Virus record (IMG/VR): IMGVR_UViG_3300032303_002011
Location: 1 to 39,086 of that record
Length of the DNA: 39,086 bases
Origin: a virus
Lineage: Duplodnaviria > Caudoviricetes
Strand: one strand, 5' to 3'
The notes under the pieces were generated by a model. That model was not told the DNA's origin, searched no databases, and was given only the letters and a program-made list of their open reading frames with translations. The translations under genes were made by a program, and so were the position numbers. Positions 6,001-29,076 of this stretch are shown in pieces (the stretch's first letter is position 1; every line of letters starts with the position of its first letter).

Positions 6001-9000
6001 GATCGTAAGGAACATCATCGCTCCACCAGAAAAGGTTAAAAGAGGTTCTAGCAACGGAGAGAAGAACGAAAGAACGCAACCCGGTGGGAAGCTAATCAAT
6101 TCTTTCGTGAGAAGCTCGATTGCCGAAAGGTTTTACATTCGTGGCTACAGCCAAGACGAGCTTCGTGAGCTCGCATACGACAAGATTATGGATTTGCTTT
6201 CCAAGTCCCCTGCCGGTCAAAAGATTGCAAAACAATATTTATCCGCAAACTCGGAATTCCTTAATGATAATTTAATCAACGCAAAGGGCGGCGCTGAGAT
6301 ATCGGAACGCAAAGAAGGCCAGATGGAGCTAGTCAAAACCCTCGTTGCAAGGGCCAAGTCCGAGGGTAATGCAACACCTACAGGGGCGGATCTGATGGCA
6401 TTCATGACGGCCGAAGAGAAGGCAAAAGGCTTCACCGAAACCGAAATTGAGTCAGCAAGATCAGAAAGACACCTATTTAACTACGTTCTCCGCTCGCTGA
6501 CCAACATGGTCGCAAAGATGACGGGTAACGAGGAGTCCGAAGGTAAAATCATCGCCCAATCCCAGATCGAGAATCGCTACAACAATCTTTCCCCAGAAGC
6601 TGATACAGAGGAAATGGCTGAAAACATGTACGGCAACCAAGCTGGTGTCGAAACAACCATTAGCAATATCCCGCTTGAAGAAGTTTACGAGAACATTGAG
6701 AGAAGCCTCCAAAACACGACTCCAGAAAGAATAATGCGGAGTATCCTTGGAAATCTTGGCGGTAAGGACGGACCGATGGACCTGCATGCACGTGGACTGT
6801 CATTCAGCCAGATTGCAGACGAGCTTAACCTTACTGGAACACAAAGGGATGACGCAAAGGTTTGGAGGTCTATTCAAGAGGGCTACCAAAGAATGCAGGT
6901 AGCTCTGGATGCTATACGAAAAAGAAAATCCGAGCTCGAATCCTTGAGAAACCCGACAGAAGAAGACGAGGCAACTTTAGACGAGATTAACGAATACCTC
7001 GGCGGATTCTCGAAAAAGGACTTGGAGGCCATCAACGCTAAGGCAAAAGAAAAAGAGGAGTTCCAAAAAGCCCTTGATGAATCCCGCCTAGAGAAAGGCG
7101 AGTCAGTACAACAAAGCTTATTCGCCAAAGTCCCAGATGCTCGGATTGTTACTAAATACTACGAGCTACAGGACAAGATACGGGCCGGCGAAGTCACCCC
7201 GAGGGAATTGGACATGTACGACAAGATCGAAAGCATGGCGATTAAGTACAAGTGGCCCGGCGTACCCGTCCAAACACGCCTCTTTGAGCTCGCAAGCATC
7301 ATGCGCCGCACAAAAGACAGCAACACACAGACAGATCTAAACGTAAAGCAGATGGAGCTGATGCTTGATGATGACACTCTCAGCGGTTTGAACGGAAACC
7401 TCAAAGCTAAAACCATTGCCAGAATGAGCGAGGATCAGTTGCTTAACGAACTAGAAGGAGATTGGTTGACAGAAGAAGAGCTCCAGCAAGCGATGGCAGA
7501 CGAAGAGGCCGGCAAATCAAGAGGATTGGCTGACTACGGAGAATCTGAGAACGCAAGTGCTGGTGTTAGGGCTTCCCAAGAGGCAACTCCTCGCCCAGCA
7601 GTCAAGAAGCTCGAGGATACGGCTCGTGGATCGGATTCGATTTCCGATAGGGACATCCTTGCTAGAATGCGTGAAGAAGGTGTGCAGTTGAGCGACGAAG
7701 AGACTTTTGCGGCCAGAAGGGTCAGCAACAAGCTATGGGACGAGGCAATTGAATCTGGGGACGAAACCCAAATCAACAGGGCATTTCTAGTAACCCGCGA
7801 CTACATTCGGTCTGGAACAGAGCAAGCAAGAGGATTGGCCGCTAGAAGGGGTCGCTCGCAAGAAGACGCCCATCGGGATGCAATCCTCTCGCCTATTCTG
7901 CCCACAGAGAACGAGCTCAAAAAAGAAGCCGCCACACAAGCCGTTAAGGCACGGAGAGAGGCTTCCAGCAAAAGGGCGCAGGTCGAAGACGCTAAGAGCA
8001 AACTCAGCAAGCAAGACCAGCAACGCCCCGATTGGAAAGAATGGTTTGACACCCAAGAGAAAGAGATTGCTGAACACAAGAAGACAATTGCTGATGGTGG
8101 ACGGAGCAAGGCCGAAGAAGTTGTCGTGGACAAGAAACGCAAAAAAGCTGAAGAAGCCCTAGCTGTTACAGGCAGAAACCTCGCGACCCTCGAAACCGAG
8201 AACACAATCCACAAGCTCCGCACGGGTGAGACAATGAATCAGATCTTGGGCAAGATAGGAGACCCCATCCTCCGCGAAGCCGTCCGGATGTACACACAAG
8301 GCATGGCGGTTAAGGATATTGAAAAAACCCTCGGCAAGAAGGGGCTAAAAAACGACATCAACAAGGCAATTGTTAATGGCCTACAGCCCGAAATGGACCG
8401 CCGGTTCCAAAGACTTTATGATGAAGTAGCCGAAAAGGGGCTGACAAAAAAACAACTTATTGCGCGGCTGAAGAAGCTATCGAATGGGCAATCTCTTCTT
8501 GCCAAAGGCATGGATAATCAGGATGACGGATCACCCCTCACCCAAGAGGAGGCACGGCAAATTACCCAAGAGATGTTCGGGCTTACCACCGAAGGGCTAA
8601 ACCGAGAGAAAAGTGAGCAGTTATTTAACTACAAAGATCAAGTCCAAGTTAGCAAAATACAATCTCTCATAACCGAGGGTGTAGATGGACCCGCTTCTTG
8701 GGGCAAGATAGCAAGCGATGTATTTGCCTCATTTATATTTAGCGGAGCCCCATCATTAGTGGCAAATGTTGGCTTAACAACAATTGCTTGGGCGAGCGTA
8801 CCGGCGCATCTTTTTGCCGAAGCTATAACTTCACGGATGAAGGGTGATGTGAAAATGGCCTACGGAGACGAAATTATTGGAACCCCATACAAAAACATTG
8901 GCGAAGCCGTGTCGGGAGGCATCACGGAAGCAAAGTCCGCTTTAGCATCCATTAAAATTGGGGCACTAAACGCCGCTTGGGCCAAAGCTTGTGATGCATT

Positions 9001-10849
9001 TAAGAATGAGTTTTCTTCTTTTGGAGAAGATCAAGGCATGGCCAACCAAGGCCTAACCGAAAGGGAGTCCGGTATTATCACCAAATCAATACCCGGGTTT
9101 ACTGGCAAGGTAGTCAGAGCTGGGATCAACTTACTTTTATCTGGCGACGAGTTCACAAAGAACTTCAGGGCAAACATGTATGTTGGAGCATTTGCGTACA
9201 GGGTTGGCAAGGCAAAGGGCTTGTCCGGAACTGATTTGACTGACTTTGTAGAAAATCAAATTGCTGACAAAAGTTCAATTGCTTGGGATTTGGCCGTTAA
9301 AAGAACTCTTAGGGACACATTCGGACAAAATCTTGCTTCCGAAGAGAATGTATCAAGGAAAACACTTGGCAAAACAAGAAGCATTGGCGAAGGCTTTGGA
9401 ATTGTTCCTCAAGCCGCCAGAAACATAAACGCAGGAATAGCCAAAATGGCACAGCAAGCATCACAGACAGATGGAATAGGCAACATTACAATTGGAGGAA
9501 GATCATTTAGCCCAGCCGAATTCGCCTTAAGGTTTGCACAGAGTTTCTTTATATTAATTAAAAGCCCATATAATATTGCTAGAGCCGCCGCCGCTTACTC
9601 GCCTCTTGCAGGGTTAAATGTTATTGCGAGAAACGCAGCCGGAACAAGAACGACAATCGACCCAGAGACAGGAAAAACAATTAAATATATGCAAGCAGAG
9701 GACTATGAGGCCTCTGTTCAGAGGCATACCGAAGCCATGCTTGGAATGATGGGGATGGCCGCTTTATGGAGTGCTTTTGAGGGAGATGATGATGACGACG
9801 AGAAAAGAGTATTTGGACTTTCATGGATGCCCAAGATACTAATTACAGGATCATCCGACAAAGGCCCAAAGACAAGATACGGGAATCAAGCCACAACCAT
9901 CACGGTTGGCGGTTACTCGTTCCCTTATGGGCGGTATGAACCATTGTCAGGATTAGCGTACCTAGCGGACCTAGCAAGAGAGGCAAAACAAATCCAAAAG
10001 GGTCGCGGATCTGCTGGGGCAAGAGTTCAACAATGGGCAAGCGACTTCATTTCATACCCATTTAGCAAAACCTTTTCAAAGTCGTGGCGCGATCTTGCAA
10101 AGTTTGCAAGCGTGAAGGGAGTTCCAGAAGTGATGCAAAACAGGATAGCATCTGTTGTTGTACCCAACTTTTTCCGTAGGCTTTTTGAGCCCGGAGCTGT
10201 TACCGCTGGTGAAGAAGAATGGGATTCCGAGCGGTTATCTGGTTGGAGTTGGAACGAGATGGGTGGATGGATTAATGCCACCCTTCCGGGACTTCCATCA
10301 ATGCTTTCCGAAGCAGGCGTCAAAGGAGTAGCCTCTGAGGGACTTCCACCAAGATCGCTTGCCGACCTAAGCGTTAAAAAGAGAAATGTTGCGGTTAGTG
10401 AAACTATAGCAAAAAGAATCCTTCCAGATAGGGCGGCAAGATTAATTGGCGGAATTACAAGAGGACTCGTACCTGAGGGTGGTTTCTATGAGGCCCCAGC
10501 AAAAACGAGGCTAGAAAAGTTCATTTCAGCTTACAACGCAAGGTATCCGCAAACATCCTATAACCCAAAGCCACCCAACAAGTTCGTGCAGATAAAAGAT
10601 AAGAATGGGATATCCAAGAACGAACAGATGACGCCTCGCGAATACAAGATGATGCTGGAAATGGCCTCAAAACTAGGCACGGCAAGGATCAATTCTGTAT
10701 TGAGCGACGAGAATATTGCGAACCCAACAGAGAATGTCCGCAAACTGGTCGATAAAATCCGAGAGGATGCAGTTAGCTCGGCCAGAGAAGCTGTAAAACG
10801 TGCGCGTCGCTATCAAAACGAAAAAGCTGTTGAGCCAGCCTCCAGCTAG
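2..10849 (+). CDS. Giant polyvalent / internal virion (ejection) protein, 5'-truncated
   Basis: Frame is open from base 2, so ATG 89 is probably internal. Zincin-like motifs EEIFH (2417-2431) and HEILH (5432-5446, with downstream SEFWA); DdrB/ParB-like segment QPRNRS..LDPNKLL..GAPTV..IIAGHGR..PVLVR (~3170-3640); HTH GLSFSQIADELNL (~6790); LPD38-like C-terminal segment (FPYGRYEPL). Lies next to the portal gene. Confidence 0.8.
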   Translation, partial: AVVEYKKAVNSNDKQSDFVDALGSVLRASMVASQETARGAYSIAANSLRAMINGKDPMPDMAPQGLQAVTSVLGKASLLANPVKGVQDAISAAGQRVGNKILEFGIRHSSKIKSLAEVTADVLEASAQAAKENKDAINKTMYVDPSFEAGITGQVLKTLGESPWTMAPYAFGEIGIPIAGALNVSRLYSEAREDQDQSYQAKLQEFKSGKIKEEPQAMTEEEAHRSALQYALPAGMIDTIADKIGFDLLKGGFKVGGKLAPKTLGEFFEATAKSLARDGEQALPLYMSAPLGGAVESISETSQQEILNGLAQQYKNWDPKREWTQELAQSAIVGGLAGILFPVMGHVSGGVYKKYVTLPQMALDNAGLDEVANQFRSHSQDVEVGGWAKFAQAIMPESAEPAQALGAKVLNTPESQLRGTGVKWVIANGIKIDARINQLQAEIDSLPPSEGKSQRQERNHLLMMRANLVSALQNDANTRSQLWKEISELPNEPLRKGEQNLHDLALVVAKFSMGAPLTEEEMKMKANGMPIIQNAQLVQMKLALQNRDPAREDGNKAVSPAFMRLIAGKLPTLEAVIESNQALLEGTPGVADEGAVPPKLSEAPSKEQIIAERKAVGEEYDKANQPTRAPSETTKTAQPSPSMPTWNVAWKRGKASGTSQVSAPTSGQAKLEALKQLKAENLPGQISIGPAEQAEQQDLIPSEQQPLINRAKELARRGSPISVNRYLRRLKGNTPEEKLADAKQRLTAFAMGMKSKYGQTVRFSENKSLTMPIFANQSEDGNVTININPDFFLKNDPEHNNRSFAEEIFHAADFIASNLEAEKAGRTDKHTFWRERRSSLYSKLKEIGKTNEDVAKAIIYSASLYVDEGPLRGKLFDKEGQNGGLSVEDTIGLIDAEQSFNDAAFMAELLRQLNSPRTTEGRVEFGRARNDAKRGKYASLKEAISVVTNYLKQVYRAIKGIRDGLKDNPEVAQELDATLQSIRDVLNEKDTEEPPLDSGLVKKLKDRGLTTAEINKMTPEEAQNRANTPIQGPAQGLDPERLKNQKSNNVRGTKYGGVKFDYVVVPRGKLNNMAGTELQPRNRSGDPDYTKEALERANELDPNKLLQGNELDTGAPTVIASGDNPYSINKDGFDIIAGHGRNESIGLAPDERRQAYIDEMRRMYPELNDEINAILESGEMPVLVRKINWDATKDSSLGTPTQQLRRIARDANLGTGNSNQTEVSLSDAMEVKDDVTLSAPPEADGSLLDPAGNPLGDREVLDKWFKIFGSPREYKSGNGYTKSFEDRVRNAIVAYTFAPVNENGQIKLDKDTFNLINTLVSENVAKEANLSSLRDGLHKAAPSLFRVRQKFQELENKLPQEAKDSNPITNIQKALVAYLGYRSEQINAGLKVSDIEFDKFVNQGQLFGEVITPNQAMILAPMVQKNGENGLLEAGQGALAPIASIKDAHSIKDSPDRIAAYLSAYANAIADAYSEYGADAVFPGMERKLTTEENASIIKGALEMAGAIYPKGQRAPEPQMPNTASNKSLGAKSIEAVKVAKEFVSYWSGVVSESQKHAKDFGNTFDEASLMERPVYGKDARDKNMANFVSAVAKVMGGRDFMRPDLVTDKDEIKEPQLSKSADESGGLAFISNKEDFDKANYLADYFGIKGKTTLGDILNRAKALGRDNNQNLGAKSLPSISPVRELRKLTNDLKNGKITELDLAVKVGQLVSDIEDQRDQRMVEKIFKERVRGPDFVEQKLLEAKRNGSLSVGQVEMARFLLRENPNLAEGLGISIRGAKEQEDIGGIYNPFNRVMTLIKDRGNESVAVHEILHHAERMMPKDVQEGIKVEWSKAYSKAIQDATAKNDTKRIELLTEMFTSLIGDQAPSESVMKAFDDNSLSRDDYQLVNPSEFWAVNASRIVADRSQTMGWVEKARQWLKEFYQLAKGAIGLQSDSPILKGLAEVIQSEGYFQSKGMLSGGLKSLASKFTDEQLFNNDENAETEQEVGATEESVKNAGIVRNIIAPPEKVKRGSSNGEKNERTQPGGKLINSFVRSSIAERFYIRGYSQDELRELAYDKIMDLLSKSPAGQKIAKQYLSANSEFLNDNLINAKGGAEISERKEGQMELVKTLVARAKSEGNATPTGADLMAFMTAEEKAKGFTETEIESARSERHLFNYVLRSLTNMVAKMTGNEESEGKIIAQSQIENRYNNLSPEADTEEMAENMYGNQAGVETTISNIPLEEVYENIERSLQNTTPERIMRSILGNLGGKDGPMDLHARGLSFSQIADELNLTGTQRDDAKVWRSIQEGYQRMQVALDAIRKRKSELESLRNPTEEDEATLDEINEYLGGFSKKDLEAINAKAKEKEEFQKALDESRLEKGESVQQSLFAKVPDARIVTKYYELQDKIRAGEVTPRELDMYDKIESMAIKYKWPGVPVQTRLFELASIMRRTKDSNTQTDLNVKQMELMLDDDTLSGLNGNLKAKTIARMSEDQLLNELEGDWLTEEELQQAMADEEAGKSRGLADYGESENASAGVRASQEATPRPAVKKLEDTARGSDSISDRDILARMREEGVQLSDEETFAARRVSNKLWDEAIESGDETQINRAFLVTRDYIRSGTEQARGLAARRGRSQEDAHRDAILSPILPTENELKKEAATQAVKARREASSKRAQVEDAKSKLSKQDQQRPDWKEWFDTQEKEIAEHKKTIADGGRSKAEEVVVDKKRKKAEEALAVTGRNLATLETENTIHKLRTGETMNQILGKIGDPILREAVRMYTQGMAVKDIEKTLGKKGLKNDINKAIVNGLQPEMDRRFQRLYDEVAEKGLTKKQLIARLKKLSNGQSLLAKGMDNQDDGSPLTQEEARQITQEMFGLTTEGLNREKSEQLFNYKDQVQVSKIQSLITEGVDGPASWGKIASDVFASFIFSGAPSLVANVGLTTIAWASVPAHLFAEAITSRMKGDVKMAYGDEIIGTPYKNIGEAVSGGITEAKSALASIKIGALNAAWAKACDAFKNEFSSFGEDQGMANQGLTERESGIITKSIPGFTGKVVRAGINLLLSGDEFTKNFRANMYVGAFAYRVGKAKGLSGTDLTDFVENQIADKSSIAWDLAVKRTLRDTFGQNLASEENVSRKTLGKTRSIGEGFGIVPQAARNINAGIAKMAQQASQTDGIGNITIGGRSFSPAEFALRFAQSFFILIKSPYNIARAAAAYSPLAGLNVIARNAAGTRTTIDPETGKTIKYMQAEDYEASVQRHTEAMLGMMGMAALWSAFEGDDDDDEKRVFGLSWMPKILITGSSDKGPKTRYGNQATTITVGGYSFPYGRYEPLSGLAYLADLAREAKQIQKGRGSAGARVQQWASDFISYPFSKTFSKSWRDLAKFASVKGVPEVMQNRIASVVVPNFFRRLFEPGAVTAGEEEWDSERLSGWSWNEMGGWINATLPGLPSMLSEAGVKGVASEGLPPRSLADLSVKKRNVAVSETIAKRILPDRAARLIGGITRGLVPEGGFYEAPAKTRLEKFISAYNARYPQTSYNPKPPNKFVQIKDKNGISKNEQMTPREYKMMLEMASKLGTARINSVLSDENIANPTENVRKLVDKIREDAVSSAREAVKRARRYQNEKAVEPASS

Positions 10850-10862
10850 TAGGTAAAAGCCG

Positions 10863-13082
10863 ATGGCGTCCACACAAATCGAGAATCTTGTCGCTAGAGC
10901 AGAAGCACTTGAGGAAGCGCTAGATACGCCAAAAAGCACCGAAGAGGGAGAGGCTCTTGGTGGCGGTAAACCAACAGAAACAGGATTTTCCTCGGCATAT
11001 AAGCTCACAGCAGAACAGGAGAGAATCCTTGTAGATCATGCGGTTGAGAGGCTTCGCAAGCTTGAGCGTGATATGGGCAGATCCCTAGTCCGAAACATGG
11101 CGTGGAGCACTCAGTCCGGCACAATGGCCGCTTACGACACCTTCTTAGGACGCAGACAGGTCTTTGAATGGCTTTACGAAAATAACGTAGATTGGAGGCC
11201 TGCGGTCATGGGTGGAATCTTTGAGCACAGCAACCTTGTTGTGCCTATTACCCGCCGAATCGTCCGCCAGATGATTGCCCGGGCTCAGAAATACTTCATC
11301 GGCACAGATCCTTGGTTTGCAACCTTCCCTCAGGGGCCGGCAGATAGGGACATTTGCGATAAGGTTGAGAAGTACGCTCGCTGGAAGTTCGATAAGACCA
11401 AGCTGAAGGAGGCTATTGCCATGATCCTTCAGATGGCCTTCGTGCGTGGCGAATGCGTAGTTAAGACCACCTTCCAAAAGAAAGAGAACATCTTCCAGCG
11501 GAAGGCCAAGGTTCTGGTAGATGCTGATGGCAACGACATCCTTGGAGCTGATGGAGACATTATCACCGATACGGACGCTTTTGTTATTGGACAGGACGGA
11601 ATGACCCTTGTTCTCCAAAGGGACGGAGTAACCGAACAGCCCCTTGTACCTATTTTCATTGAGAAAATCATCACCCGCAAAGTCGTGACCCATAGCGGTC
11701 CTACTGCCGAGCCGATCTACTACCAAGATTTTATCTGCCCCCTAAACGCAACAAGCATCGATGATGCCGACTTCTGCGCTCACCTTTACGATGCTCCCGT
11801 GATGGAGTTAACCGACTTTTACTCGAAGTCACCCAAGGAAGAGACTCCAGAAGCAGAATTGGCAAGGCTGACAGCCGCTATTGAACAGATTCGCTTAGGC
11901 GCCGGTGAAAGCGGAATGGCTAAATCGGCAACAGGCCAAGCAAGAGTCGAGCGCGGGGAGACCCAACTCAGCCCAGACGATACGAACCCCAAGATGGAAA
12001 TTGCAGAATGCTACATCCGTTATGATGCTAACAATGACGGAATCCTTGAGGAAATCGTCCTCATGCTCGATGTTCAAAACCGCAGGGCTTTGTATTATGA
12101 CTATCTAGCCAATGTAACTCCCGACGGGAAAAGGCCGTTCACCGCAGTCCGCATCAACCCTGTTGACGGCCGGTGGTATGGTTTGGGTGCAGTTGAGCAG
12201 TTCAAGACATCCCAAGACTTCGTTGATTTGACGATTAACAGGCTGAATTTCGCTCAAGGAGCCTCTGGAAGGGTCACTTTCTGGCGTCCCGACGCTACCT
12301 TTGAGGGGTCGGCAAATCCCAATTTGATCCTCAATACTGGCGGGACTTACACGCTTCGGCCCGGGTTTTCCGCTCCTGACGCCCTCACCTACGTCAATTT
12401 GCCAGAAACAAAGAACAATGACCTAAACTTCATGCTTAATTACTTCACTCAGATCGTCCAACTGGAGTCGGGTGTTGTGAACGGCGGGGATCAGGAGTTT
12501 TCTGGTTTGCCTAGCAGTAAGCTCGCAACCGGAATCCGCTCCATTGACCAAGCTGGGACCGAAATGTTCAGCCAATATCTGCTCTCGCTTGAGTCTCCCC
12601 TCACCCAGATCATCAACCGACTCATGACCATTCTTCTGGATAATTTAGATAAACAGGAAGCCTTTACCTACCTCGAGGGAGATGCGGCGAGCTTAATCAG
12701 CGTAACTCCTGACGATGTGCGGGGGATGGATCTAAACATCAAGCTCCTCCTAACCCGCTATCACGGAGAGCAACAGCTACAAAGCAACGCCCAAGCGGCC
12801 AATCTGGTTGCTCAATTCTACGGACTGCCTCCAGAGGTTCAGCAGAAAGTCGGACTCTTCTACCGCCAGAGCTTAAAGGCTCTTGGAATCATGGAAGCCG
12901 ACTCGATTATCCAAGCTTTTGAGCCACCTCCCGCAGTTAATGGCATTACCCCAGACGGAAGAGTCTTTGGACAGGCTGGATCTCCGGGTTCCCCCACTTC
13001 TTCGGTTGGTGGATCTAGGCAGGTTCCGATGGATGCGGGATCGGCTGGAGGGCCAAATCCGGGTAATGGGACATCGCTATGA
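10863..13082 (+). CDS. Portal protein (podovirus/P22-like)
   Basis: 739 aa; MAFVRGECVVK, RPF..PVDGRWYGLG..QD..N, QLESGV..ATGI pattern and Pro/Gly-rich tail typical of this portal class. Confidence 0.85.
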   Translation: MASTQIENLVARAEALEEALDTPKSTEEGEALGGGKPTETGFSSAYKLTAEQERILVDHAVERLRKLERDMGRSLVRNMAWSTQSGTMAAYDTFLGRRQVFEWLYENNVDWRPAVMGGIFEHSNLVVPITRRIVRQMIARAQKYFIGTDPWFATFPQGPADRDICDKVEKYARWKFDKTKLKEAIAMILQMAFVRGECVVKTTFQKKENIFQRKAKVLVDADGNDILGADGDIITDTDAFVIGQDGMTLVLQRDGVTEQPLVPIFIEKIITRKVVTHSGPTAEPIYYQDFICPLNATSIDDADFCAHLYDAPVMELTDFYSKSPKEETPEAELARLTAAIEQIRLGAGESGMAKSATGQARVERGETQLSPDDTNPKMEIAECYIRYDANNDGILEEIVLMLDVQNRRALYYDYLANVTPDGKRPFTAVRINPVDGRWYGLGAVEQFKTSQDFVDLTINRLNFAQGASGRVTFWRPDATFEGSANPNLILNTGGTYTLRPGFSAPDALTYVNLPETKNNDLNFMLNYFTQIVQLESGVVNGGDQEFSGLPSSKLATGIRSIDQAGTEMFSQYLLSLESPLTQIINRLMTILLDNLDKQEAFTYLEGDAASLISVTPDDVRGMDLNIKLLLTRYHGEQQLQSNAQAANLVAQFYGLPPEVQQKVGLFYRQSLKALGIMEADSIIQAFEPPPAVNGITPDGRVFGQAGSPGSPTSSVGGSRQVPMDAGSAGGPNPGNGTSL

Positions 13083-16838: not shown

Positions 16839-16839
16839 A

Positions 16840-19385: not shown

Positions 19386-20909
19386 ATGGCTGAAAACCTT
19401 AGCATTCCTACAAATAACGCTACTAGCGACTTTAAGTCGCAATCCCCCACGTTCCTTCCGGAATTGTGGAAAAAAGGAGTTCAACTCTCGGAAGCCGCTG
19501 AGAACTTTTTCAATCAGTTCGAAGGCCCGACTGAGAATTACTCCGTAATGTCGGTCCGCGACTTGTCTCGCGGAGCTGGCACCAAAATCACGTTCCGCAC
19601 CATGGCGCAACTCTACGGAGAAGGCGTACAGGGCGAAACACTCATCAACAGCAACACGGAAGATTTCCGCGTTGGTGCTTACAACCTGACCGTTGATTTC
19701 CTACGGCATGCGGTTTCTTACAATCGCCGGCTCGAAGAGAAAACGGCTTTGGCTTCTGAATTGAAGTCGAATGTTCCTGTCATGCTGGGCAACTGGCTTG
19801 GCCGGATGAAGACTGAGCGCTTGATGAAACTCTTCCTCCACAAGGGGAACGGGCGGAATTATGTGTTCGCCAACGGCAAAGCTAATACCGATGCCTTGTT
19901 GAGCACGGACACCCTCAGCTACGATGGAATCATTGCCTACGGACAACAGCTTCGCACTCGCGGTGCTCGTCCCGCTCAGGTTGCGACCATCGACAAGAAC
20001 AAGCTCAACCGCTACGTGGTAGTTTCCACCGGTGAAGGGCTCCTCTCGCTGAAAAGCGAAGACAAGTACCTGAAGGCAGTTCAAGCGGCTGGTGGGCGTG
20101 AAGGCTACAATGGAGTTCAATTCACGGGCGGATTCGTTGACCTCGACGGCCACATCATTCGTCAGTTTGATCCTATCGATCACGACGGATTTGGTGCTAT
20201 CGGGTCTCCTCTGAACGCGAAAGCAACCCTCGGAACGGCGATCACCGCCACCACGGGTTCTGCGATCACGGTTCGGGCGACTGCCACTCAGGTGAGCGCG
20301 ACCATCCCCGGATACGGAGCCTCGTACTTCAAGTACTTCTCTGGCTTCAGCTATCCGTTCAGCGCGGACGATTCGGACAACAAGATCCTCGGCACGGCCA
20401 CCACCGGTGGTTATGTCTTGATCCTCAACCTGACGGGTTCCGATGCAGGCAAGTACGGTTTCTACCGCTACTCTGCTAACAACGGCAACACCCTCACCTT
20501 GGATCGCGGTCTCGTTGCCACCACCGGAACTGAAGGCACGTCGGAAGCGTTCCAACTCAAGAAAACAGTTGGAAGCGTTGCCAGCCATGCCACCACCGGT
20601 GCTTGGGCTAACGCCAACCTCACCAACAGCCACCCCGTAGGCTCGCTCGTTATCGAGACGAATGCTCGCGGTGTTGCGATTGGTCGTTCCCTCGTCTTGG
20701 GAGCCATGGCCGCTGTTCGCGGTTACGGATCTCTCGACGGCGAGCGCTCCGAGGAAACCTTTGACGGAGATTTCGTGCGTAAGACCTACATTACCTCGAT
20801 CTTCGGACAGGCTCCTTACCAGCGTCCGGACGGCGATCTGCCTAACTTCTTGGTCGCTACCCATGCGGTCAACTACGCAGGTCTGAATCTGCCCTCGGTG
20901 ACTAGCTAA
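19386..20909 (+). CDS. Major capsid protein (N4-gp56/DUF4043-like, HK97 fold)
   Basis: DLSRGAGTKITF..LYGEGVQGE..E..LTVDFLRHAV motif; strong SD, biased codon use and downstream terminator. Confidence 0.88.
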   Translation: MAENLSIPTNNATSDFKSQSPTFLPELWKKGVQLSEAAENFFNQFEGPTENYSVMSVRDLSRGAGTKITFRTMAQLYGEGVQGETLINSNTEDFRVGAYNLTVDFLRHAVSYNRRLEEKTALASELKSNVPVMLGNWLGRMKTERLMKLFLHKGNGRNYVFANGKANTDALLSTDTLSYDGIIAYGQQLRTRGARPAQVATIDKNKLNRYVVVSTGEGLLSLKSEDKYLKAVQAAGGREGYNGVQFTGGFVDLDGHIIRQFDPIDHDGFGAIGSPLNAKATLGTAITATTGSAITVRATATQVSATIPGYGASYFKYFSGFSYPFSADDSDNKILGTATTGGYVLILNLTGSDAGKYGFYRYSANNGNTLTLDRGLVATTGTEGTSEAFQLKKTVGSVASHATTGAWANANLTNSHPVGSLVIETNARGVAIGRSLVLGAMAAVRGYGSLDGERSEETFDGDFVRKTYITSIFGQAPYQRPDGDLPNFLVATHAVNYAGLNLPSVTS

Positions 20910-20970: not shown

Positions 20971-21282
20971 ATGAGAGCAGTTTGCGTTATCCGAGACGGG
21001 CCAAGGTATGTGCCTGTCTTCGTTATTCACGATAAAACCAACAAGAGACATAACTTTGTTTGGTCTGCCGTGTATAACGCCCATATCTGGGATCGTGGAG
21101 ATCTAGGACCAGAAGACTCCCGCGACCTAGATAATATCCTTTCTAGAGCAGACAATTTCTACCGAGCTTCCGTGATTCTAAGGCCTGACGATGTCACGCC
21201 TCCTATCGTTCCTAATGAAGTAGTCGAACAGCCTAAGCCTAAAAACAAGGGTGGACGCCCACGGAAAGTGCAGGTGGCGTGA
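20971..21282 (+). CDS. Hypothetical protein with basic C-terminal GRPRK (AT-hook-like) motif
   Basis: 103 aa ending KPKNKGGRPRKVQVA; a gene type often found after capsid genes. Confidence 0.65.
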   Translation: MRAVCVIRDGPRYVPVFVIHDKTNKRHNFVWSAVYNAHIWDRGDLGPEDSRDLDNILSRADNFYRASVILRPDDVTPPIVPNEVVEQPKPKNKGGRPRKVQVA

Positions 21283-21950
21283 AGGTAAACGAAGCCATTG
21301 ATGCCATGTACGAAGTGTTCGGGGTTCCGAACAATGCTTCAGCGCCTCCCATCATGCAGAGGCGTATCTTCAATGACCTCAACTCTGCCATGCAGTTGCT
21401 ATGGACGAAGGGGCATCGGCTTCTTGATTACTACACAAGAGGCGAAGTCACAGTAACCATCCAAGCTAACAGCAAGTCGCAAGCCCTTTCCGACAGCGTT
21501 CAGTCCGTGATTGGCCCTGTCCGCAGAGCCACGGACAACATGATGCTTCGACCAATTAAAAGCCGTGGCGAATACGAGAATTACGCAAGCATCTATGCCG
21601 GTAGCTTGACCCAATTAGCTGGCTCCCCTCCTCAGGCTTACTTCATTGAGGCATCGAGGAATTCGCCACCCGACGCAACAAGCATCAGCATTTTTGTTGT
21701 CCCTGTTCCGATTGTGAGTACGGACCTCAAGGTTGCCGTATCCCTAAATGCTCCAGCCTTTACCCAGACGGATTACACAAACCACACGGAGATACCAATC
21801 CCCCACAACTATGCAGAAACCCTGCTGTTGCCCGTGGCCAGATATCTCACATGCTCTTCCCTTTTCTTTGCTGATAAATCGAAACAACGCGAGCCCCTGC
21901 TGAAAGCAGAATACGACAGGGCTCTACAAACCCTGGTGGAATCCGTATGA
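21279..21950 (+). CDS. Head-tail adaptor / tail tubular protein A-like
   Basis: N-terminal helices (IFNDLNSAMQ), G.P.AYF, IFVVPVP, IPIP..Y and C-terminal helices. Confidence 0.7.
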   Translation: MKVNEAIDAMYEVFGVPNNASAPPIMQRRIFNDLNSAMQLLWTKGHRLLDYYTRGEVTVTIQANSKSQALSDSVQSVIGPVRRATDNMMLRPIKSRGEYENYASIYAGSLTQLAGSPPQAYFIEASRNSPPDATSISIFVVPVPIVSTDLKVAVSLNAPAFTQTDYTNHTEIPIPHNYAETLLLPVARYLTCSSLFFADKSKQREPLLKAEYDRALQTLVESV

Positions 21951-22813
21951 CGAGTCTTCAACTAGCGCAAAGGGCTTTGTCTTTCACAAAGTTACCTACC
22001 GACCCAGCGAACATCTCGGCCAACGAGGCCGCTACGATAGTTGGTGCGATCAATGCTGGAATGTCTCGTTATTACATCAGCGCACCCAGCGGAAGGAAAA
22101 CAACCCCTGTAACTGCCTACATCAAGGCTCCTGAGCCGGTAAACATTGGACTTACAAAAGGGTCTTATAATACTACCGGACTAAACCTCGGAACCGATGA
22201 CAGAATGGGCGACACAATTCTTGTCGCTGACAGGAAGATTCGTTTGGCAATTGGAACAAAGCTCCGTGAGCCATGGCCTCTTGAAACAGGAACATACGCA
22301 GGCACTCTTTATGATGATGCCGTTCCGCTTTATACCCCTGTCCGCAGGATTGAGGGTTATGTCATTTTCGATGAGCGTTATAGACTCCCTTTCCTTGCCG
22401 ACACACCCGTAAGAGAAGATGAGATAGTAGTTCCAAGAAGGAGCGGATCGCCGGCGTTCTTTTCTATTGAAAGCCTTGGGGACGCCGTCGGTGGATCTGC
22501 CAGAGCTCTTGTGAGACTATACCCTGCCCCTTCTCAGGCTTCCACAATCCGATTCGCGGCAAGCATCGAAGCCCAAACATTCACGATAGCTAACTTGTCT
22601 GATGCTGTTGCCGTGTACGCCAGCCCTATGGATGTTGAGGCATTTATCGTGCCTTTAATCGCTTCAGAATTGGCTCTAACGCAATACTGGCAAGACGGAG
22701 TATCCCGAGAGCTTGCAATTGGCAAAGGCAGGGAAACAGAGGCTTTCCTTCGAACATACCATGAGCCAACCGGCCCCTCCATGAGCAGGGCTCTTACCCC
22801 AATAGGATTCTAA
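21947..22813 (+). CDS. Second adaptor-like neck protein
   Basis: Same architecture: AINAGM, SGSPAFF, VRLYPAP, FIVPLIA; coupled to its neighbours. Confidence 0.6.
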   Translation: MTSLQLAQRALSFTKLPTDPANISANEAATIVGAINAGMSRYYISAPSGRKTTPVTAYIKAPEPVNIGLTKGSYNTTGLNLGTDDRMGDTILVADRKIRLAIGTKLREPWPLETGTYAGTLYDDAVPLYTPVRRIEGYVIFDERYRLPFLADTPVREDEIVVPRRSGSPAFFSIESLGDAVGGSARALVRLYPAPSQASTIRFAASIEAQTFTIANLSDAVAVYASPMDVEAFIVPLIASELALTQYWQDGVSRELAIGKGRETEAFLRTYHEPTGPSMSRALTPIGF

Positions 22814-23436
22814 TGGCTTTAGTAGCAACATTCGATCTTGCCGAGAACATGATAACCAGCGTCCTATCGCAGGTTCGTCGTGGCGTATCGCTATCCAGAA
22901 TGGATAACACGGAGAATTCAACTAGGGGGGTAATGGTCGACCTTCCCGAAAAAATTGATTTTGAAATAAACCTGCTTAAATACCACCAGCTTCTCAGCAG
23001 GCAGACAACATCGACAGAAACGAGTTTATCTGCAGACGCAGAGTCATTGGCTTCAGTTGACTCGGAGTTATCACGCGACAGCGAAAGATCCCTAGATAAT
23101 TCGCGGTCGGGCGGAGGCTCGAATGAGGGGAACCGATCTTTATCCAGAGAGGTCAGTCTCGACTCAAATCGTGGTGGTGAAGGCTCATCAATGAGAGGCG
23201 GCGGAAGCTCATCTGATTCCGTAAGTTCAAGCGGAACGGAAGACAGGAGCTCAAAGAAAAATGAAAAAGAAATTGATTCTGCGTCGAGTAGCTCAAAAGA
23301 GAACTCTAACGAGACCAATAAGGACAATTCAACTAGATTAGACTACGAATGCTCAGACAAGTGGGTTACCTCTGAGACAAACAGAAATTATTGGAAACTC
23401 GATGAAGATACTGGAGTAGTAACACAAGCATCATGA
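22813..23436 (+). CDS. Ser/acidic alternating-register protein A1 (putative beta-tube subunit)
   Basis: N-terminal domain VRRGV..G.M.DLP.K.DFEI..HQ.LSR shared with 24184..24846, followed by a long polar tract. Confidence 0.7.
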   Translation: MALVATFDLAENMITSVLSQVRRGVSLSRMDNTENSTRGVMVDLPEKIDFEINLLKYHQLLSRQTTSTETSLSADAESLASVDSELSRDSERSLDNSRSGGGSNEGNRSLSREVSLDSNRGGEGSSMRGGGSSSDSVSSSGTEDRSSKKNEKEIDSASSSSKENSNETNKDNSTRLDYECSDKWVTSETNRNYWKLDEDTGVVTQAS

Positions 23437-23915
23437 GCTTTACACTTGTAGATTATCTAAATAGCGCAACAGGACAATCGGTTAACTCCGGTAGCGGTAG
23501 TGGGTCTAGCTCTGGATCGTCCTCTGGCTCATCATCGGCATCATCCTCAACCAGCACCTCTTCATCTAGGAGTAGCTCAACGAGCGATTCGTCTAGTCAA
23601 AGCTCTAGCCGTAGCGGAAGCAATTCAAGCAGCAACAGCAGGTCTTCATCTACAAGCGGAATTTCAAGCAATAGCTCAAGCGGATCAAGCTCATCCTCTT
23701 CCTCTAGGAGCGGTTCCTCTTCTAGCTCCACAAGTTCTAGTGGGTCTGGTAGCCGTTCTGGCTCATCAAGTTCTTCATCCAGTAGATCTTCTAGTTCGTC
23801 CAGATCGTCTTCTGGCGGGTCCTCGAGAACAGAAACTCAAAAAGATGATATCGGCTGTGTTGTCCGATTCAGCGTTCCAATTGTTGTCCAATTCCCGGGA
23901 GATGTTTCGCCATGA
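23433..23915 (+). CDS. Poly-(Ser-X) protein B (putative beta-tube subunit)
   Basis: ATGA-coupled at both ends; 114-residue Ser tract using all six Ser codons; C-terminal VVRFSVPIVV strand. Confidence 0.7.
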   Translation: MSFTLVDYLNSATGQSVNSGSGSGSSSGSSSGSSSASSSTSTSSSRSSSTSDSSSQSSSRSGSNSSSNSRSSSTSGISSNSSSGSSSSSSSRSGSSSSSTSSSGSGSRSGSSSSSSSRSSSSSRSSSGGSSRTETQKDDIGCVVRFSVPIVVQFPGDVSP

Positions 23916-24187
23916 ATGACGAAGGCAAAGCTCTTGAGCGGATAGCTCGCGTTGAGGAAAACCAGCGGTGGGTGATGCAAAACCTAACCGATATTCGAAA
24001 TATGCTTGAGAAGTCCCTGTCCGAGAAAGGAGAGGCCCATGAGCGTGTTTTAGAAAGGCTAAATAACGTCGAGGATGATGTCACCGGAATAAAAACCAAA
24101 CTATGGATGTTTGGGATTGGTGCTGGAGCGATCCTGACGGCCTTATGGGAGCTTGCAAAAGCAAAGCTATGGGGTGACCACCCGTGA
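23912..24187 (+). CDS. Coiled-coil protein with a C-terminal TM helix (XhlA-like/holin-like)
   Basis: ERIARVEE..ERLNNVE coiled coil, then LWMFGIGAGAILTALW. Confidence 0.6.
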   Translation: MNDEGKALERIARVEENQRWVMQNLTDIRNMLEKSLSEKGEAHERVLERLNNVEDDVTGIKTKLWMFGIGAGAILTALWELAKAKLWGDHP

Positions 24188-24846
24188 CAATTGTCCAGCT
24201 TTCAGATCTGGATGATTTCTTAAAAGACTCGCTATCAATAGTGAGGCGTGGAGTTGCTAATGCGAGGAACGCAAATCAGTCAAACCCTGCCCTCGGAATT
24301 ATGGCAGACCTCCCAGACAAAGTGGATTTTGAAATAATGGTGGTATCAAATCACCAATCTTTAAGCAGAGTAGCATCAACCACATCTTCCGATTCAAGCT
24401 CAATTAGTGAAATACTTGGGTCTAGGGAAAATGGTGGCTCACTAACCGGAGGTTCTTCCGTTGAGTCCAACTCTAAGAGCGATTTAGCCAACGAGAGTTC
24501 TTTAGACACATCTTCCATAACTAACTCGAAAAAAGCGGATTCTGGAAGTTCATCCTTTGAACTCGATTCAGAAACATCAAATGGAAATTCCAAGGAATAT
24601 GATAACTCCTCATCAAAAGGGTACGGCACATCCGACAGCAACGAGAAGGGAACAAGAAGCGAAAACAGATCAGCCACAAATACCTCTTCAAACAACAAAA
24701 ACGAGAAAAGCAAAAGCATGCAAATAGGCCGAACAAGAGAGAGCAACAAGCATCAGGTAAAAGGATTTGACCAATCCACCGGCCGATGGGGAGGCCAGAA
24801 TTTCGCTCCAGTTCAACCAGAAAGACAAGAACTAAAATGCTCTTAG
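24184..24846 (+). CDS. Ser/acidic alternating-register protein A2 (paralog of 22813..23436)
   Basis: GTGA-coupled start; aligns without gaps to A1 in the N-domain and ends its tract with FDQSTG versus LDEDTG. Confidence 0.7.
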   Translation: MTIVQLSDLDDFLKDSLSIVRRGVANARNANQSNPALGIMADLPDKVDFEIMVVSNHQSLSRVASTTSSDSSSISEILGSRENGGSLTGGSSVESNSKSDLANESSLDTSSITNSKKADSGSSSFELDSETSNGNSKEYDNSSSKGYGTSDSNEKGTRSENRSATNTSSNNKNEKSKSMQIGRTRESNKHQVKGFDQSTGRWGGQNFAPVQPERQELKCS

Positions 24847-25214
24847 TATTTGCGTTATTTTTCTTGGCTGGGTGCTCAACCACACAGCATCAATCCCCAT
24901 CTTTTGATAGGGCATATTCCTACTTAGACCAAGCGTCTGACTCTGCATCCGGGAGGACGGCGGAAGCCATCAAAAAAGCCAAAGAGCAGATTATAGCCGC
25001 AGATAAAGCGTGTTTAGCCAACACAGAAGCCCTCGATGAGGCTGTTAGGGCCAAAAACGAGGCGATCAAAGACGCCGAATACTGGAAAGCAAAACAGCGG
25101 AAAGCTCTTAAAGAGCTATGGGTATGGCGCGGGCTTCTAATTGTGGTTGGATTGTTTGCCCTCAGGGGGCCGATCTTCTGGGTGATTCGTAAATTCATAG
25201 GTATCCCTTGGTGA
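24837..25214 (+). CDS. Lipoprotein, putative unimolecular spanin
   Basis: Start re-called to ATG 24837: MLLVFALFFLAG-C lipobox, Ala/Lys helical middle, C-terminal hydrophobic segment; within the lysis cluster. Confidence 0.65.
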   Translation: MLLVFALFFLAGCSTTQHQSPSFDRAYSYLDQASDSASGRTAEAIKKAKEQIIAADKACLANTEALDEAVRAKNEAIKDAEYWKAKQRKALKELWVWRGLLIVVGLFALRGPIFWVIRKFIGIPW

Positions 25215-25558
25215 AGAAATTCATTTCCCATCTGCAAGGCGTCACCTGTTTTTCCATTGCGTCCTTCATATTCTGGTTCTCTGGGCCGATTGTTCAGCAT
25301 TTCGACCCAACCGCTGGAGTTTGGGATCGCGGGTCAATGCACGGGCTGGCGATTGGAGCTTGTGCATACTTTCTTGCCGTATGGTTGGCTTGGCTGGCCT
25401 TTCAGATTGAGTGGCCTTCTTTAGATAAGCACATCGACGAGAACAGGTGGCTTCAAGACATGCGAGCCATGTCCCCTGCTTCTCGGGTTTGGTTCACCTT
25501 AGCTGTCTGGTCAGTTCTATTTACTGGAGCCCTTTTATGCCTTCTGTCATGGAGGTAA
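25211..25558 (+). CDS. Putative holin (3 TM)
   Basis: GTGA-coupled start; three hydrophobic segments; directly upstream of the endolysin. Confidence 0.6.
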   Translation: MKKFISHLQGVTCFSIASFIFWFSGPIVQHFDPTAGVWDRGSMHGLAIGACAYFLAVWLAWLAFQIEWPSLDKHIDENRWLQDMRAMSPASRVWFTLAVWSVLFTGALLCLLSWR

Positions 25559-25562
25559 TCAA

Positions 25563-26072
25563 ATGCGCCTGTCACTTGTCGGTATTGTGTTTTGTCTCGC
25601 TAATACGCTACTTGCGGGACCAAGAGAGGACGTTGCCTTTATCGCAACAGCCCTATTGGAGACAAAAGAAGAATGGGGCGAAAACTCGGGGCCCATGGTG
25701 GATCAAATCCTTGCTTCCGTGGGTCTTCCTCCCGGGAATCCTTGGTGTGCGGCTTTCAACTACTACTGCTTTAGCCGAGCCGGTTATGCGGATGCCGTCC
25801 CCAGAACAGGTTGGTCTCCGTCGTGGTTGGCTGGACAAAGAAAGCCAGCCGAAAAAGCCCAAACCGCCGACGTCTTCGGTATCTATTTTAGCAGTCTCCG
25901 CAGAATTGCCCATACAGGGATCATAGAGAAGCCCTGTAATGGCTACTGCATAACCATAGAAGGAAACACAAACAATGGAGGCTCAAGAGATGGAGACGGG
26001 GTCTATCGCAGAAGAAGGCCAAACAAAACAATCGTCATCAAAGATTGGCTCGAAGAAGCCGTCTCTCGGTGA
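25563..26072 (+). CDS. CHAP-domain endolysin with N-terminal signal sequence
   Basis: E..GENSG, PWCAAF (catalytic Cys), HTGII (His), TIEGNT; hydrophobic N-terminus. Confidence 0.88.
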   Translation: MRLSLVGIVFCLANTLLAGPREDVAFIATALLETKEEWGENSGPMVDQILASVGLPPGNPWCAAFNYYCFSRAGYADAVPRTGWSPSWLAGQRKPAEKAQTADVFGIYFSSLRRIAHTGIIEKPCNGYCITIEGNTNNGGSRDGDGVYRRRRPNKTIVIKDWLEEAVSR

Positions 26073-28026: not shown

Positions 28027-29076
28027 TCAGAGGTGTTCTGAGAACCTTCTAAAGGCCGATTCCCCGTCACCAATTCCAGCCATAAGAGCCGTATGGGCAT
28101 TCATGGCCATAAGCTCCCTAGCTTGAGTATCAAAAGCCAGAGCGCTTAGTCTGTAGACTACTTGCTCGTCGTTTTTGCATAACAAACCGGTTCGGCCATC
28201 TTCTATAAACTCAGGCATCCCGCCTGTATTAGATCCAACTACAATGGACCCAGATGCCATAGCCTCAAAAGCAACCCGAGGAGCGTTCTCAACTACAGGG
28301 TAGTACATAAGGGTTGCGTGGCAGGCGCTCATCATGTCTCCAATGACCGCCGGGTCATAGACATGCCCGTTAATAGATCCGGATAACTTTCCGTGATATG
28401 CGTGATCTGGCTTCCTATAGTCACCTATCTTAGCCTCTCCATTCGGCCCCCAGCCAATCAAATGGATGCCTTTTGGCTTTGGTGAGGCAAACCTGTGCAC
28501 AATCTCCCATAGGTTATCTGGGTACTTGTCTGGATCATCTCTTCCAATCTTAAGCACATCAAACCTAGATCTATCTTTGGGGTAATTCCTAAATTTGCTC
28601 CAAGAGGAAAGAAGGTTGAAATAGGGTTCACAATGAATGAAGTTATGGCTTAGCCCTAAAGGGATAAGCTCATTATTGAGGGCATTTTGCTGGTATCTGG
28701 ATTGGCACAAGACGCGGAGATTTGGTATTCTCCCAATCGCAATCTTTTCTTCAACCGAAAGAAAGTTCATGCACGGCCAGTAAGCGATTAGGGCAGGTTT
28801 TTCATCATTCCTATAGATGTAGGAGAACAGGTCTTGTTCGCACCAGCACCAGACCACCTTATCGGTTAGCACCCCGGGGGCGTATTCTTTGGTTTTAACA
28901 CCTATTGCGTCAAAATACTTCCTTCTGGGCTCATCGGCCCCCAATACGTCTGTGCCAGCCTTAAGAACGCAGGTTACATCAATATCCCTGCTCCTTAATA
29001 ATTCAATGATATGACCAACTTCAGGACCGGCTCCACCGCATTGGTGTAAATAGCCCCAAACGTAGATTTCCTTCAT
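28027..29076 (-). CDS. Glycosyltransferase, GT-B fold (GT4-like)
   Basis: N-terminal GGAG; ENAPRVAFEAMASG..VVGSNTGGMPEFIEDGRTGLL signature. Confidence 0.9.
   Translation of the reverse strand: MKEIYVWGYLHQCGGAGPEVGHIIELLRSRDIDVTCVLKAGTDVLGADEPRRKYFDAIGVKTKEYAPGVLTDKVVWCWCEQDLFSYIYRNDEKPALIAYWPCMNFLSVEEKIAIGRIPNLRVLCQSRYQQNALNNELIPLGLSHNFIHCEPYFNLLSSWSKFRNYPKDRSRFDVLKIGRDDPDKYPDNLWEIVHRFASPKPKGIHLIGWGPNGEAKIGDYRKPDHAYHGKLSGSINGHVYDPAVIGDMMSACHATLMYYPVVENAPRVAFEAMASGSIVVGSNTGGMPEFIEDGRTGLLCKNDEQVVYRLSALAFDTQARELMAMNAHTALMAGIGDGESAFRRFSEHL

What the first reader, a model, noticed from the sequence alone, without database searches (positions are those of the whole stretch)
23002..24783. Paralogs A1 and A2 keep an identical 132-residue spacer with one acidic face
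Although the tracts are very divergent, both have exactly 132 residues between HQxLSR and [LF]DxxTG (63+138+6=207 aa; 62+138+20=220 aa). Counting from HQxLSR, Asp/Glu sit on even positions in 22 of 23 cases in A1 (first 116 residues) and 16 of 18 in A2 (first 132), while most hydrophobic residues, and in A1 most Arg/Lys, sit on odd positions. Exact length conservation suggests co-assembly in one register-locked barrel acting as a molecular ruler. An acidic lumen is a known property of phage DNA conduits; assigning this face to the lumen is inference.
Basis: partly seen in the sequence, partly recalled or inferred. Interest (0 to 1): 0.82.

Follow-up and report, generated by a model that had tools for sequence, protein, structure and literature searches.

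The report
Phage tube zipped from length-matched strands
Three neighbouring phage tail-region genes encode long serine-rich strands whose lengths change together, residue for residue, across related phages, and they likely zip head-to-tail into one hollow beta-barrel tube predicted to be 20 to 60 nm long, a tail design we did not find described.

Summary
Observation confirmed: both spacers are 132 residues and Asp/Glu fall on one face (22 of 23; 16 of 18). The number 132 is not conserved. What is conserved is the match: across related phages the tracts of A1, A2 and the intervening gene B range from 84 to 236 residues and stay locked (A2 minus B = 1 in 24 of 25 loci; A1 minus A2 = 0 or 2 in 22 of 22). 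Position by position, A2's acids face B's Arg/Lys only when the chains are laid antiparallel (0 of 400 rotated controls; no parallel or self-hairpin signal). A distant clade has just one A and one B. The genes follow two podophage-type adaptor genes, and a complete relative shows no tape-measure, tube or sheath hit. A's head weakly resembles the first half of Trypco2/Pepco barrel proteins, and B ends like the second half. Best reading (inferred): an A1-B-A2-B beta-barrel tail tube whose wall strands set its length (about 37 nm here). The acidic face is probably the lumen, but it is neutral in the two-gene clade. No structure of the assembly was obtained.

The parts
22813..23436 (+). A1, 207 aa: head (helix 7-34, strand 51-55), then one long amphipathic Ser-rich strand (spacer 23002-23397), conserved Cys, distal anchor LDEDTG (23398-23415)
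23433..23915 (+). B, 160 aa: short conserved N-terminal motif, Ser-rich strand (Ser on one face; Gly/Arg/Asn on the other), conserved C-terminal CVVRFSVP strand (Phe146 at 23868-23870); inferred returning strand
24184..24846 (+). A2, 220 aa (GTG start): paralog of A1; spacer 24370-24765, distal anchor FDQSTG (24766-24783), C-terminal tail ending in Cys
23912..24187 (+). 91-aa membrane-anchored, holin-like gene between B and A2; not part of the length-locked set (it sits elsewhere in other clades)
   Evidence: phrog_689 holin, E 0.007; XhlA, under cut-off
21947..22813 (+). 288-aa second adaptor-like protein, directly upstream of A in every clade; likely docking ring for the tube
   Evidence: pLDDT 81; Foldseek: chains of GP4 portal-tail 8jov E 1.9e-4, DEV neck/tail 9bgm E 7.1e-4, N4 tail 9lc0 E 1.6e-3; TM by query only 0.32-0.40
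21279..21950 (+). SU10-type head-tail adaptor, 223 aa
   Evidence: PF24175, 30.3 bits, cut-off 27
19386..20909 (+). major capsid protein
   Evidence: phrog_334, E 7.7e-20
10863..13082 (+). SU10-type portal
24786..26072 (+). lysis genes: Rz-like spanin, membrane protein, CHAP-like endolysin (context, not part of the tube)
89..10849 (+). 3586-aa protein with a ddrB-like ParB domain; likely cargo injected with the DNA (context)
   Evidence: PF18763, E 2.1e-11; role inferred

Best explanation
A1, B and A2 carry Ser-rich alternating strands whose lengths are matched within each phage, and they likely assemble as an antiparallel beta-barrel that would form the phage's tail tube and DNA conduit below the two adaptor rings. 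Each chain would give one full-length strand: A1 and A2 run away from the head, B runs back, in the order A1-B-A2-B (A-B in two-gene phages). At the head end, A's helix-plus-strand and B's last strand would rebuild a Trypco2/Pepco-like domain from two chains; at the far end, A's terminal motif meets B's N-terminus. Tube length would be set by strand length itself: about 37 nm here and 21-61 nm in relatives, using the 2.57 A per residue of the phi29 collar barrel. The face with Asp/Glu (A), Arg/Lys (B) and Gly would line the lumen. Shown: length lock, parity, antiparallel A2-B complementarity, gene position. Inferred: closure into a barrel, strand number, stoichiometry, which face is inside, presence in the virion, DNA passage.
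For: Length lock: A2-B = 1 in 24 of 25 loci, A1-A2 = 0 or 2 in 22 of 22, A1-B = 1 or 3 in 23 of 23 three-gene loci and -1 in 5 of 6 two-gene loci (with one mis-anchored value, L092 A2, corrected). Neighbouring genes keep near-constant lengths. Phages with near-identical adaptors differ in length (204 vs 146; 134 vs 208; quick tree). Anchor distances are even in 52 of 55 A proteins. Antiparallel register: A2 D/E against B K/R peaks at shifts -4 and -2, the top two of 83 shifts; 0 of 400 rotated controls reach it; it survives trimming 35 residues from each end (0 of 200), while the parallel layout gives nothing (137-175 of 200). A1 and A2 side-chain volumes anti-correlate at -2 and +2, the two lowest of 31 shifts (0 of 400), as expected for every-other strands offset by two residues per pair. 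In the two-gene clade a bulky (NENR)n tract and a small (TGTS)n tract swap between A and B but never coincide. None of 9,819 tract residues is Pro. Position: A follows the adaptor pair in all clades, and in two-gene phages B is followed by a fibre-like gene. No tape-measure, tube or sheath family among 58 ORFs given from two complete 65-kb relatives, 52 of them from G002. B has the strongest ribosome-binding site of the three in 14 of 20 loci (weak, related loci). Lumen assignment: 31 Trypco2-like proteins put charged residues on the same parity as A (118:3), and Pepco models have a charged lumen (PMC12642450, section 8).
Against: No model or structure of the assembly. The A1 monomer model leaves the tract unfolded (pLDDT under 50). 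A1-B charge complementarity is not significant (74 of 400); its volume signal is modest (5 of 400) and moves to another shift after trimming. The shift pattern was read after the fact, the 12 groups are related, and 10-residue repeats create side peaks. Two loci break the lock (L028 by 10, L065 by 24). The Trypco2 link is weak: no Pfam hit, HH-align probability 54%, B's end not significant (6 of 60), and B's parity relative to its Phe is shifted by one against Trypco2. The face is neutral in two-gene phages. Absence of tail-tube hits is weak evidence, because most ORFs of these phages hit nothing. No host or cultured relative was found.
Confidence: 0.55

Rival explanations
1. Same antiparallel barrel, but an ejection tube: the chains are stored unfolded in the head and zip up only on infection to cross a thick cell envelope, as the T7 or DEV ejection proteins do with helices.
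For: Tracts are Ser/Thr/Gly/Asn-rich and predicted unfolded alone; 21-61 nm would span an envelope; a giant cargo-like protein is encoded; Pepco relatives are membrane-active (PMC12642450).
Against: The genes sit right after the adaptors, not beside the giant gene; another 434-478 aa gene precedes the giant in complete relatives; no hydrophobic belt in the tracts (face print-out; large hydrophobics about 6%); described DEV and T7 tunnels are alpha-helical (PMC11445570, passages).
Confidence: 0.2
2. A narrow barrel (about 12 strands, for example 3 A1 + 3 A2 + 6 B) that is a needle, plug or spike rather than a DNA conduit.
For: Volume anti-correlation between A1 and A2 implies crowding on the variable face, which suits a small radius; small residues dominate; strand number is unknown.
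Against: No nozzle or other tube gene was recognised to hold a needle; a net acidic or neutral polar face suits a conduit; Pepco forms 9-10-mers (PMC12642450), which would be 18-20 strands if each subunit gives a hairpin.
Confidence: 0.13
3. Each chain folds back on itself as a roughly 70-residue hairpin (as phi29 gp11 does), and equal lengths only keep the hairpins level.
For: Would also predict length matching; phi29 gp11 has similar dimensions (PMC6542822).
Against: No self-complementarity signal in A1 or A2 (largest Z 2.6); the inter-chain signal maps the whole of B onto the whole of A2 end to end; parity never flips at mid-tract; repeats run uninterrupted across the midpoint; head and last strand lie on different chains.
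Confidence: 0.05
4. A lysis or host-killing pore, as the Pepco resemblance and the neighbouring holin, spanin and endolysin genes might suggest.
For: In this clade a holin-like gene lies between B and A2 and lysis genes follow.
Against: In two-gene phages fibre genes separate A-B from the lysis genes, and the holin-like gene moves; no partner protease gene seen beside them; strands are far longer than a membrane and lack a hydrophobic belt.
Confidence: 0.04

Closest known systems
phi29 lower collar gp11 (and the P68 and Andhra counterparts)
   Same: A tail tube that is one continuous antiparallel beta-barrel whose length is set by strand length: 12 subunits, 24 strands, 180 A long, 32 A inner diameter (PMC6542822, passages; PMC11476376, passages).
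   Different: gp11 is one gene giving an intramolecular hairpin with a helical collar. Here two or three genes each give one strand, 84-236 residues against about 70. No sequence similarity to any PDB chain. The phi29 lumen is rich in Arg/Lys. Portal and adaptors here are SU10/N4-type.
Pepco / Trypco2 (Pfam PF19631)
   Same: Helix, then strand, at the N-terminus; final V-[RK]-F-x-V strand; charged residues on the same parity; Pepco forms 9-10-mer barrels with a charged lumen (PMC12642450, section 8). HH-align of A heads to a Trypco2-like alignment: 48 colinear columns, probability 54%, 0 of 60 shuffles.
   Different: Split over two chains; strands several times longer; no Pfam match; no hydrophobic outer belt; no partner protease seen; encoded in a phage structural module instead of a defence locus.
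N4-like tail tube (DEV gp75)
   Same: Tube hung under a head-to-tail adaptor, 330 A long, 36 A inside, no tape measure mentioned; the 288-aa protein here resembles chains of DEV and N4 tails (PMC11445570, passages).
   Different: gp75 is a single dodecameric gene product described as resembling an upside-down portal barrel, with a mildly basic channel; no similarity to A or B was found.
Tape-measure-controlled siphophage and myophage tails
   Same: Tail length is encoded in protein length; electronegative lumen (PMC9022992, passages).
   Different: There one internal ruler templates stacked rings; here the inferred rulers are the wall, and two or three genes must change together.

Membership tests
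Trypco2 / Pepco (PF19631) | Match to the Pfam model at the curated cut-off | tested here: not met
   no hit for A1, A2, B, 25 head fragments, 14 distant homologues, or the six-frame genome
Trypco2 / Pepco (PF19631) | N-terminal helix plus strand homologous to the family's first half | tested here: inconclusive
   probability 54%, pairwise E 1.3e-4, 0 of 60 column shuffles; a cluster with 10% Trypco2 at rank 20, score 0.75 (lead only); helix 7-34, strand 51-55
Trypco2 / Pepco (PF19631) | Helix, hairpin and last strand in one small protein | tested here: not met
   head on A, last-strand-like motif on B; A-to-B reading frame varies (12, 2 and 15 of 29 loci in frames 0, 1, 2), so no conserved fusion by recoding; no fused form seen among the 49 of 58 profile hits read
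Trypco2 / Pepco (PF19631) | Partner protease gene and activation by cleavage | tested here: not met
   neighbours are adaptors, holin-like and fibre-like genes; cleavage itself not testable
Trypco2 / Pepco (PF19631) | Oligomeric beta-barrel with charged lumen | not testable with these tools
   parity agrees; the closed barrel needs a many-chain model or EM
phi29-type lower collar | Sequence or fold similarity to gp11 | tested here: not met
   no PDB sequence under E 0.95; no PHROG; no viral fold match for the head model
phi29-type lower collar | Intramolecular beta-hairpin from one gene | tested here: not met
   no self-pairing signal; the inter-chain antiparallel signal is present
phi29-type lower collar | Continuous barrel wide enough for dsDNA, attached to the neck | not testable with these tools
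   gene position fits; strand number unknown
Tape measure protein | One long helical protein templating a tube of stacked rings, with tube and chaperone genes | tested here: not met
   beta-type two-residue periodicity; no tube or tape-measure family among 58 ORFs given from complete relatives
Podophage ejection proteins (T7 gp14-16, DEV gp73-71 type) | Operon of small, medium and giant genes; alpha-helical tunnel | tested here: not met
   A and B lie about 12 kb from the giant gene and are beta-patterned; packaging inside the head not testable

The most novel reading that the evidence does not exclude
These phages build a 20-60 nm DNA tube from a Trypco2/Pepco-type pore domain split into two genes and stretched several-fold: each chain is one strand running the full length of the barrel, A1 and A2 alternate around B, and tube length evolves by matched insertions in all three genes. 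It would be several times longer than the phi29 collar barrel, a tail type without tape measure or ring stacking, and an evolutionary link between an anti-phage pore family and a phage tail.
Probability: 0.35. Interest if true: 0.92.

Novelty: new variant of a known kind. Interest (0 to 1): 0.82.

Why it matters
If true, it adds a way of building and sizing a phage tail: the wall strands are the ruler, and length is tuned by co-ordinated changes in two or three genes. It gives a natural length series (84 to 236 residues) in which tube length can be tested directly against sequence, and simple repeat rules (bulky beside small, acid beside base) for very long soluble beta-barrels, useful for nanopore and nanotube design. 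It would also tie a widespread defence pore family to virion architecture. Seven literature searches showed no description in the listings; that library lacks most subscription papers.

Tried and rejected
Complex prediction, 3 x A1(1-91) with 3 x B(105-160): no verdict (score 0.25, mark 0.32); it says nothing either way. Sequencing runs: no RNA holder listed. Gapless sequence alignment of the two tracts: not supported. Pfam, PHROG and PDB sequence searches of A1, A2 and B: nothing. Atlas search with full A1: no usable feature hit, structure rows under TM 0.4. Fold search of the A1 head model: no match under E 2.8. Host search: two scans of genome contigs gave nothing real (L096 is a chance match); named phages gave one weak capsid match and none for A2. 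Programmed fusion of A1 and B: rejected, frames vary. Parallel pairing and self-hairpin: no signal. A recalled idea that N4-like tail tubes are beta-barrels was not borne out by the DEV passages. The careful tree did not finish; the quick tree was used. Left out of length counts: three divergent two-gene loci without usable anchors (L040, L049, L072) and genes cut by contig ends. Left out of the register test: L006, L012, L027, L046 (near-duplicates or partial) and the mismatched L028 and L065; L075 was also left out as too short.

Full report
Setting. The window is a 39,086-base virus record, estimated 60% complete. It encodes an SU10-type portal, a major capsid protein, an SU10-type adaptor, a 288-aa protein, then A1 (22813-23436), B (23433-23915), a 91-aa holin-like protein, A2 (24184-24846) and lysis genes. 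The 288-aa protein folds well (pLDDT 81) and its best structural matches are chains of 200-240 aa from short-tailed phage neck and tail structures (GP4 E 1.9e-4, DEV 7.1e-4, N4 1.6e-3; TM by query 0.32-0.40), so it is likely a second adaptor ring. A1, A2 and B hit no Pfam or PHROG family.

The observation. The weaker claims on hydrophobic and basic residues are borderline in the window, but hold when pooled over 21 three-gene loci: D/E 447:47 and 435:29, large hydrophobics 385:110 the other way, and B's Arg/Lys 181:3 on one face. The tracts are not alignable by sequence. A second assembly covers the stretch with 43 substitutions and no gap.

Length lock. Searches gave 86 loci for the scan, 78 with B, 35 after removing duplicates and subsets. 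I measured from the head Phe to the distal anchor in A, and from Met to the C-terminal Phe in B. A2 minus B is 1 in 24 of 25 loci; A1 minus A2 is 0 or 2 in 22 of 22, the 2 being an insertion next to the HQ motif in some subfamilies; A1 minus B is 1 or 3 in 23 of 23. One printed value (L092 A2, 183) was a wrong anchor; searches give 164. The exception is L028, where B lacks one 10-residue repeat while A2 equals that of L010. A2 takes 14 different lengths from 84 to 212. Flanking genes keep near-constant lengths. On a quick tree of the adaptor, near-identical neighbours differ widely (204 vs 146, 134 vs 208, 162 vs 134); cassette swapping may reduce the number of independent events. A distant clade has one A and one B right after the same adaptor pair and before a fibre-like gene; there the difference is -1 in 5 of 6, up to 236 residues (L065 is 24 short, within perfect repeats). 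Three divergent two-gene loci had no usable anchors and were not counted. Among A proteins without context, 52 of 55 anchor distances are even.

How the chains pair. I laid B against A2 and A1 at every shift, in both directions, over 12 groups of related loci. A2's acids meet B's Arg/Lys at antiparallel shifts -4 and -2, the top two of 83 shifts, with 10 and 11 of 12 groups positive. Rotating B independently per group never reached that score (0 of 400). It survives removing 35 residues from each end (0 of 200) and is absent in the parallel layout (175 and 137 of 200). A1 and A2 side-chain volumes anti-correlate at -2 and +2, the two lowest of 31 shifts (0 of 400). Twin peaks two residues apart are what an alternating A1-B-A2-B ring would give if each strand pair is offset by two residues; this reading was made after seeing the data. 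Against it: A1-B charge pairing is not significant (74 of 400), and A1-B volume is modest (5 of 400) and shifts on trimming. Folding A back on itself gives no signal. In the two-gene clade a bulky (NENR)n strand always lies with a small (TGTS)n strand, whichever gene carries which. B has the strongest ribosome-binding site in 14 of 20 three-gene loci, weakly in line with 1:2:1. A and B are separate genes: their relative frame varies.

Which face is inside. The variable face carries D/E/G in A and R/K/G/N in B. It is net acidic in three-gene phages (-9 to -28 per A1+A2+2B) and near neutral in two-gene phages (0 to -5). From memory, the A head and the B end looked like the two halves of Trypco2. 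I tested this with one Pfam-confirmed member and 30 of its 32 homologues. A heads align colinearly over 48 columns (probability 54%, pairwise E 1.3e-4, 0 of 60 shuffles); B's end lands on the last strand but not significantly (6 of 60). An Atlas feature search listed a 10% Trypco2 cluster at rank 20, a lead only. Pfam itself does not ring. In those proteins charged residues fall on the same parity as in A (118:3), and Pepco (= Trypco1/2) forms 9-10-mer barrels modelled with a charged lumen (PMC12642450; passages and section 8 read, supplements not seen). So the acidic face is probably the lumen, by inference; B's parity needs a one-residue bulge to fit.

What it does. The phi29 collar has two 180-A strands in residues 103-258 with a 16-residue loop (PMC6542822, passages), which is 2.57 A per residue by my arithmetic; applied here it gives 37 nm for the window and 21-61 nm across relatives. 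Among 58 ORFs given from two complete 65-kb relatives (52 from G002, 6 from G001; G002's portal, capsid, scaffold, A1, B, A2 and ORFs under 100 aa were not given) none matched a tape measure, tube or sheath family, though most matched nothing. With gene position, this makes a tail tube the best reading (0.55). An ejection tube formed on infection (0.20) and a narrow needle (0.13) share the same barrel and cannot be excluded; self-hairpins (0.05) and a lysis pore (0.04) fit poorly. I put co-assembly into one antiparallel, register-locked sheet at about 0.9.

Comparison and novelty. It would work like the phi29 collar but is not a member of that family, and it resembles Trypco2/Pepco without meeting its defining features. 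The DEV tube (PMC11445570, passages), SU10 nozzle (PMC9509320, passages), ring-stacked tubes (PMC9022992, passages) and the phi29 review (PMC11476376, passages) describe other designs; PMC7159879 was seen only as a listing. Seven searches listed no paper on such a set, judged from titles and abstract openings. An earlier AI note on another genome (e1-9778515) reached a similar idea; it was found after my tests and is not independent evidence. Verdict: real, strongly non-random, new variant of a known kind; interest 0.82.

Noticed in passing
L062, L073 against L065, L066, L070 (A and B genes): In the two-gene clade the (NENR)n and (TGTS)n/(GSTT)n tracts swap between A and B while keeping the same face parity; the adaptor genes are nearly identical.
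   Followed up: yes
P0003, P0004, P0005: A1 variants of 207, 217 and 227 aa differ by tandem 10-residue duplications; L010 has 10-residue repeats in A1, A2 and B alike. How three genes expand in step is unexplained.
   Followed up: partly
L017, L020, L026: A1 carries almost only Gly on the variable face while A2 carries almost only Asp/Glu: a division of labour between the paralogs.
   Followed up: partly
window 23353-23355 (A1 Cys181), B Cys142, A2 C-terminus: Conserved cysteines: one 15 residues before A1's distal anchor, one or more at A2's C-terminus, one four residues before B's Phe; possible disulfide locks.
   Followed up: no
P0064-P0076: Short A homologues of 98-166 aa with strands of 45-110 residues; no genomic context available.
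   Followed up: partly
window 89-10849; L032; L036, L038, L039: Giant protein directly upstream of the portal: 3586 aa here with a ddrB-like ParB domain, at least 5,524 aa in G001.
   Followed up: no
window 13410-18293; L005 859-1404: The genes between portal and scaffold lie on the opposite strand in the L005 clade; G002 encodes a serine invertase-like gene (L036 12313-12903). A link was not tested.
   Followed up: no
window 21279-22813: Two adaptor-like genes in tandem in every clade examined.
   Followed up: partly
L097 1378-2351: A Trypco2-matching gene directly followed by a DpnII-MboI-type nuclease gene in an unnamed bacterial genome (G158), without an evident protease in the two ORFs read.
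   Followed up: no
window 28027-29702 (minus strand): Group 1 glycosyltransferase and DUF3431 genes next to the late region.
   Followed up: no
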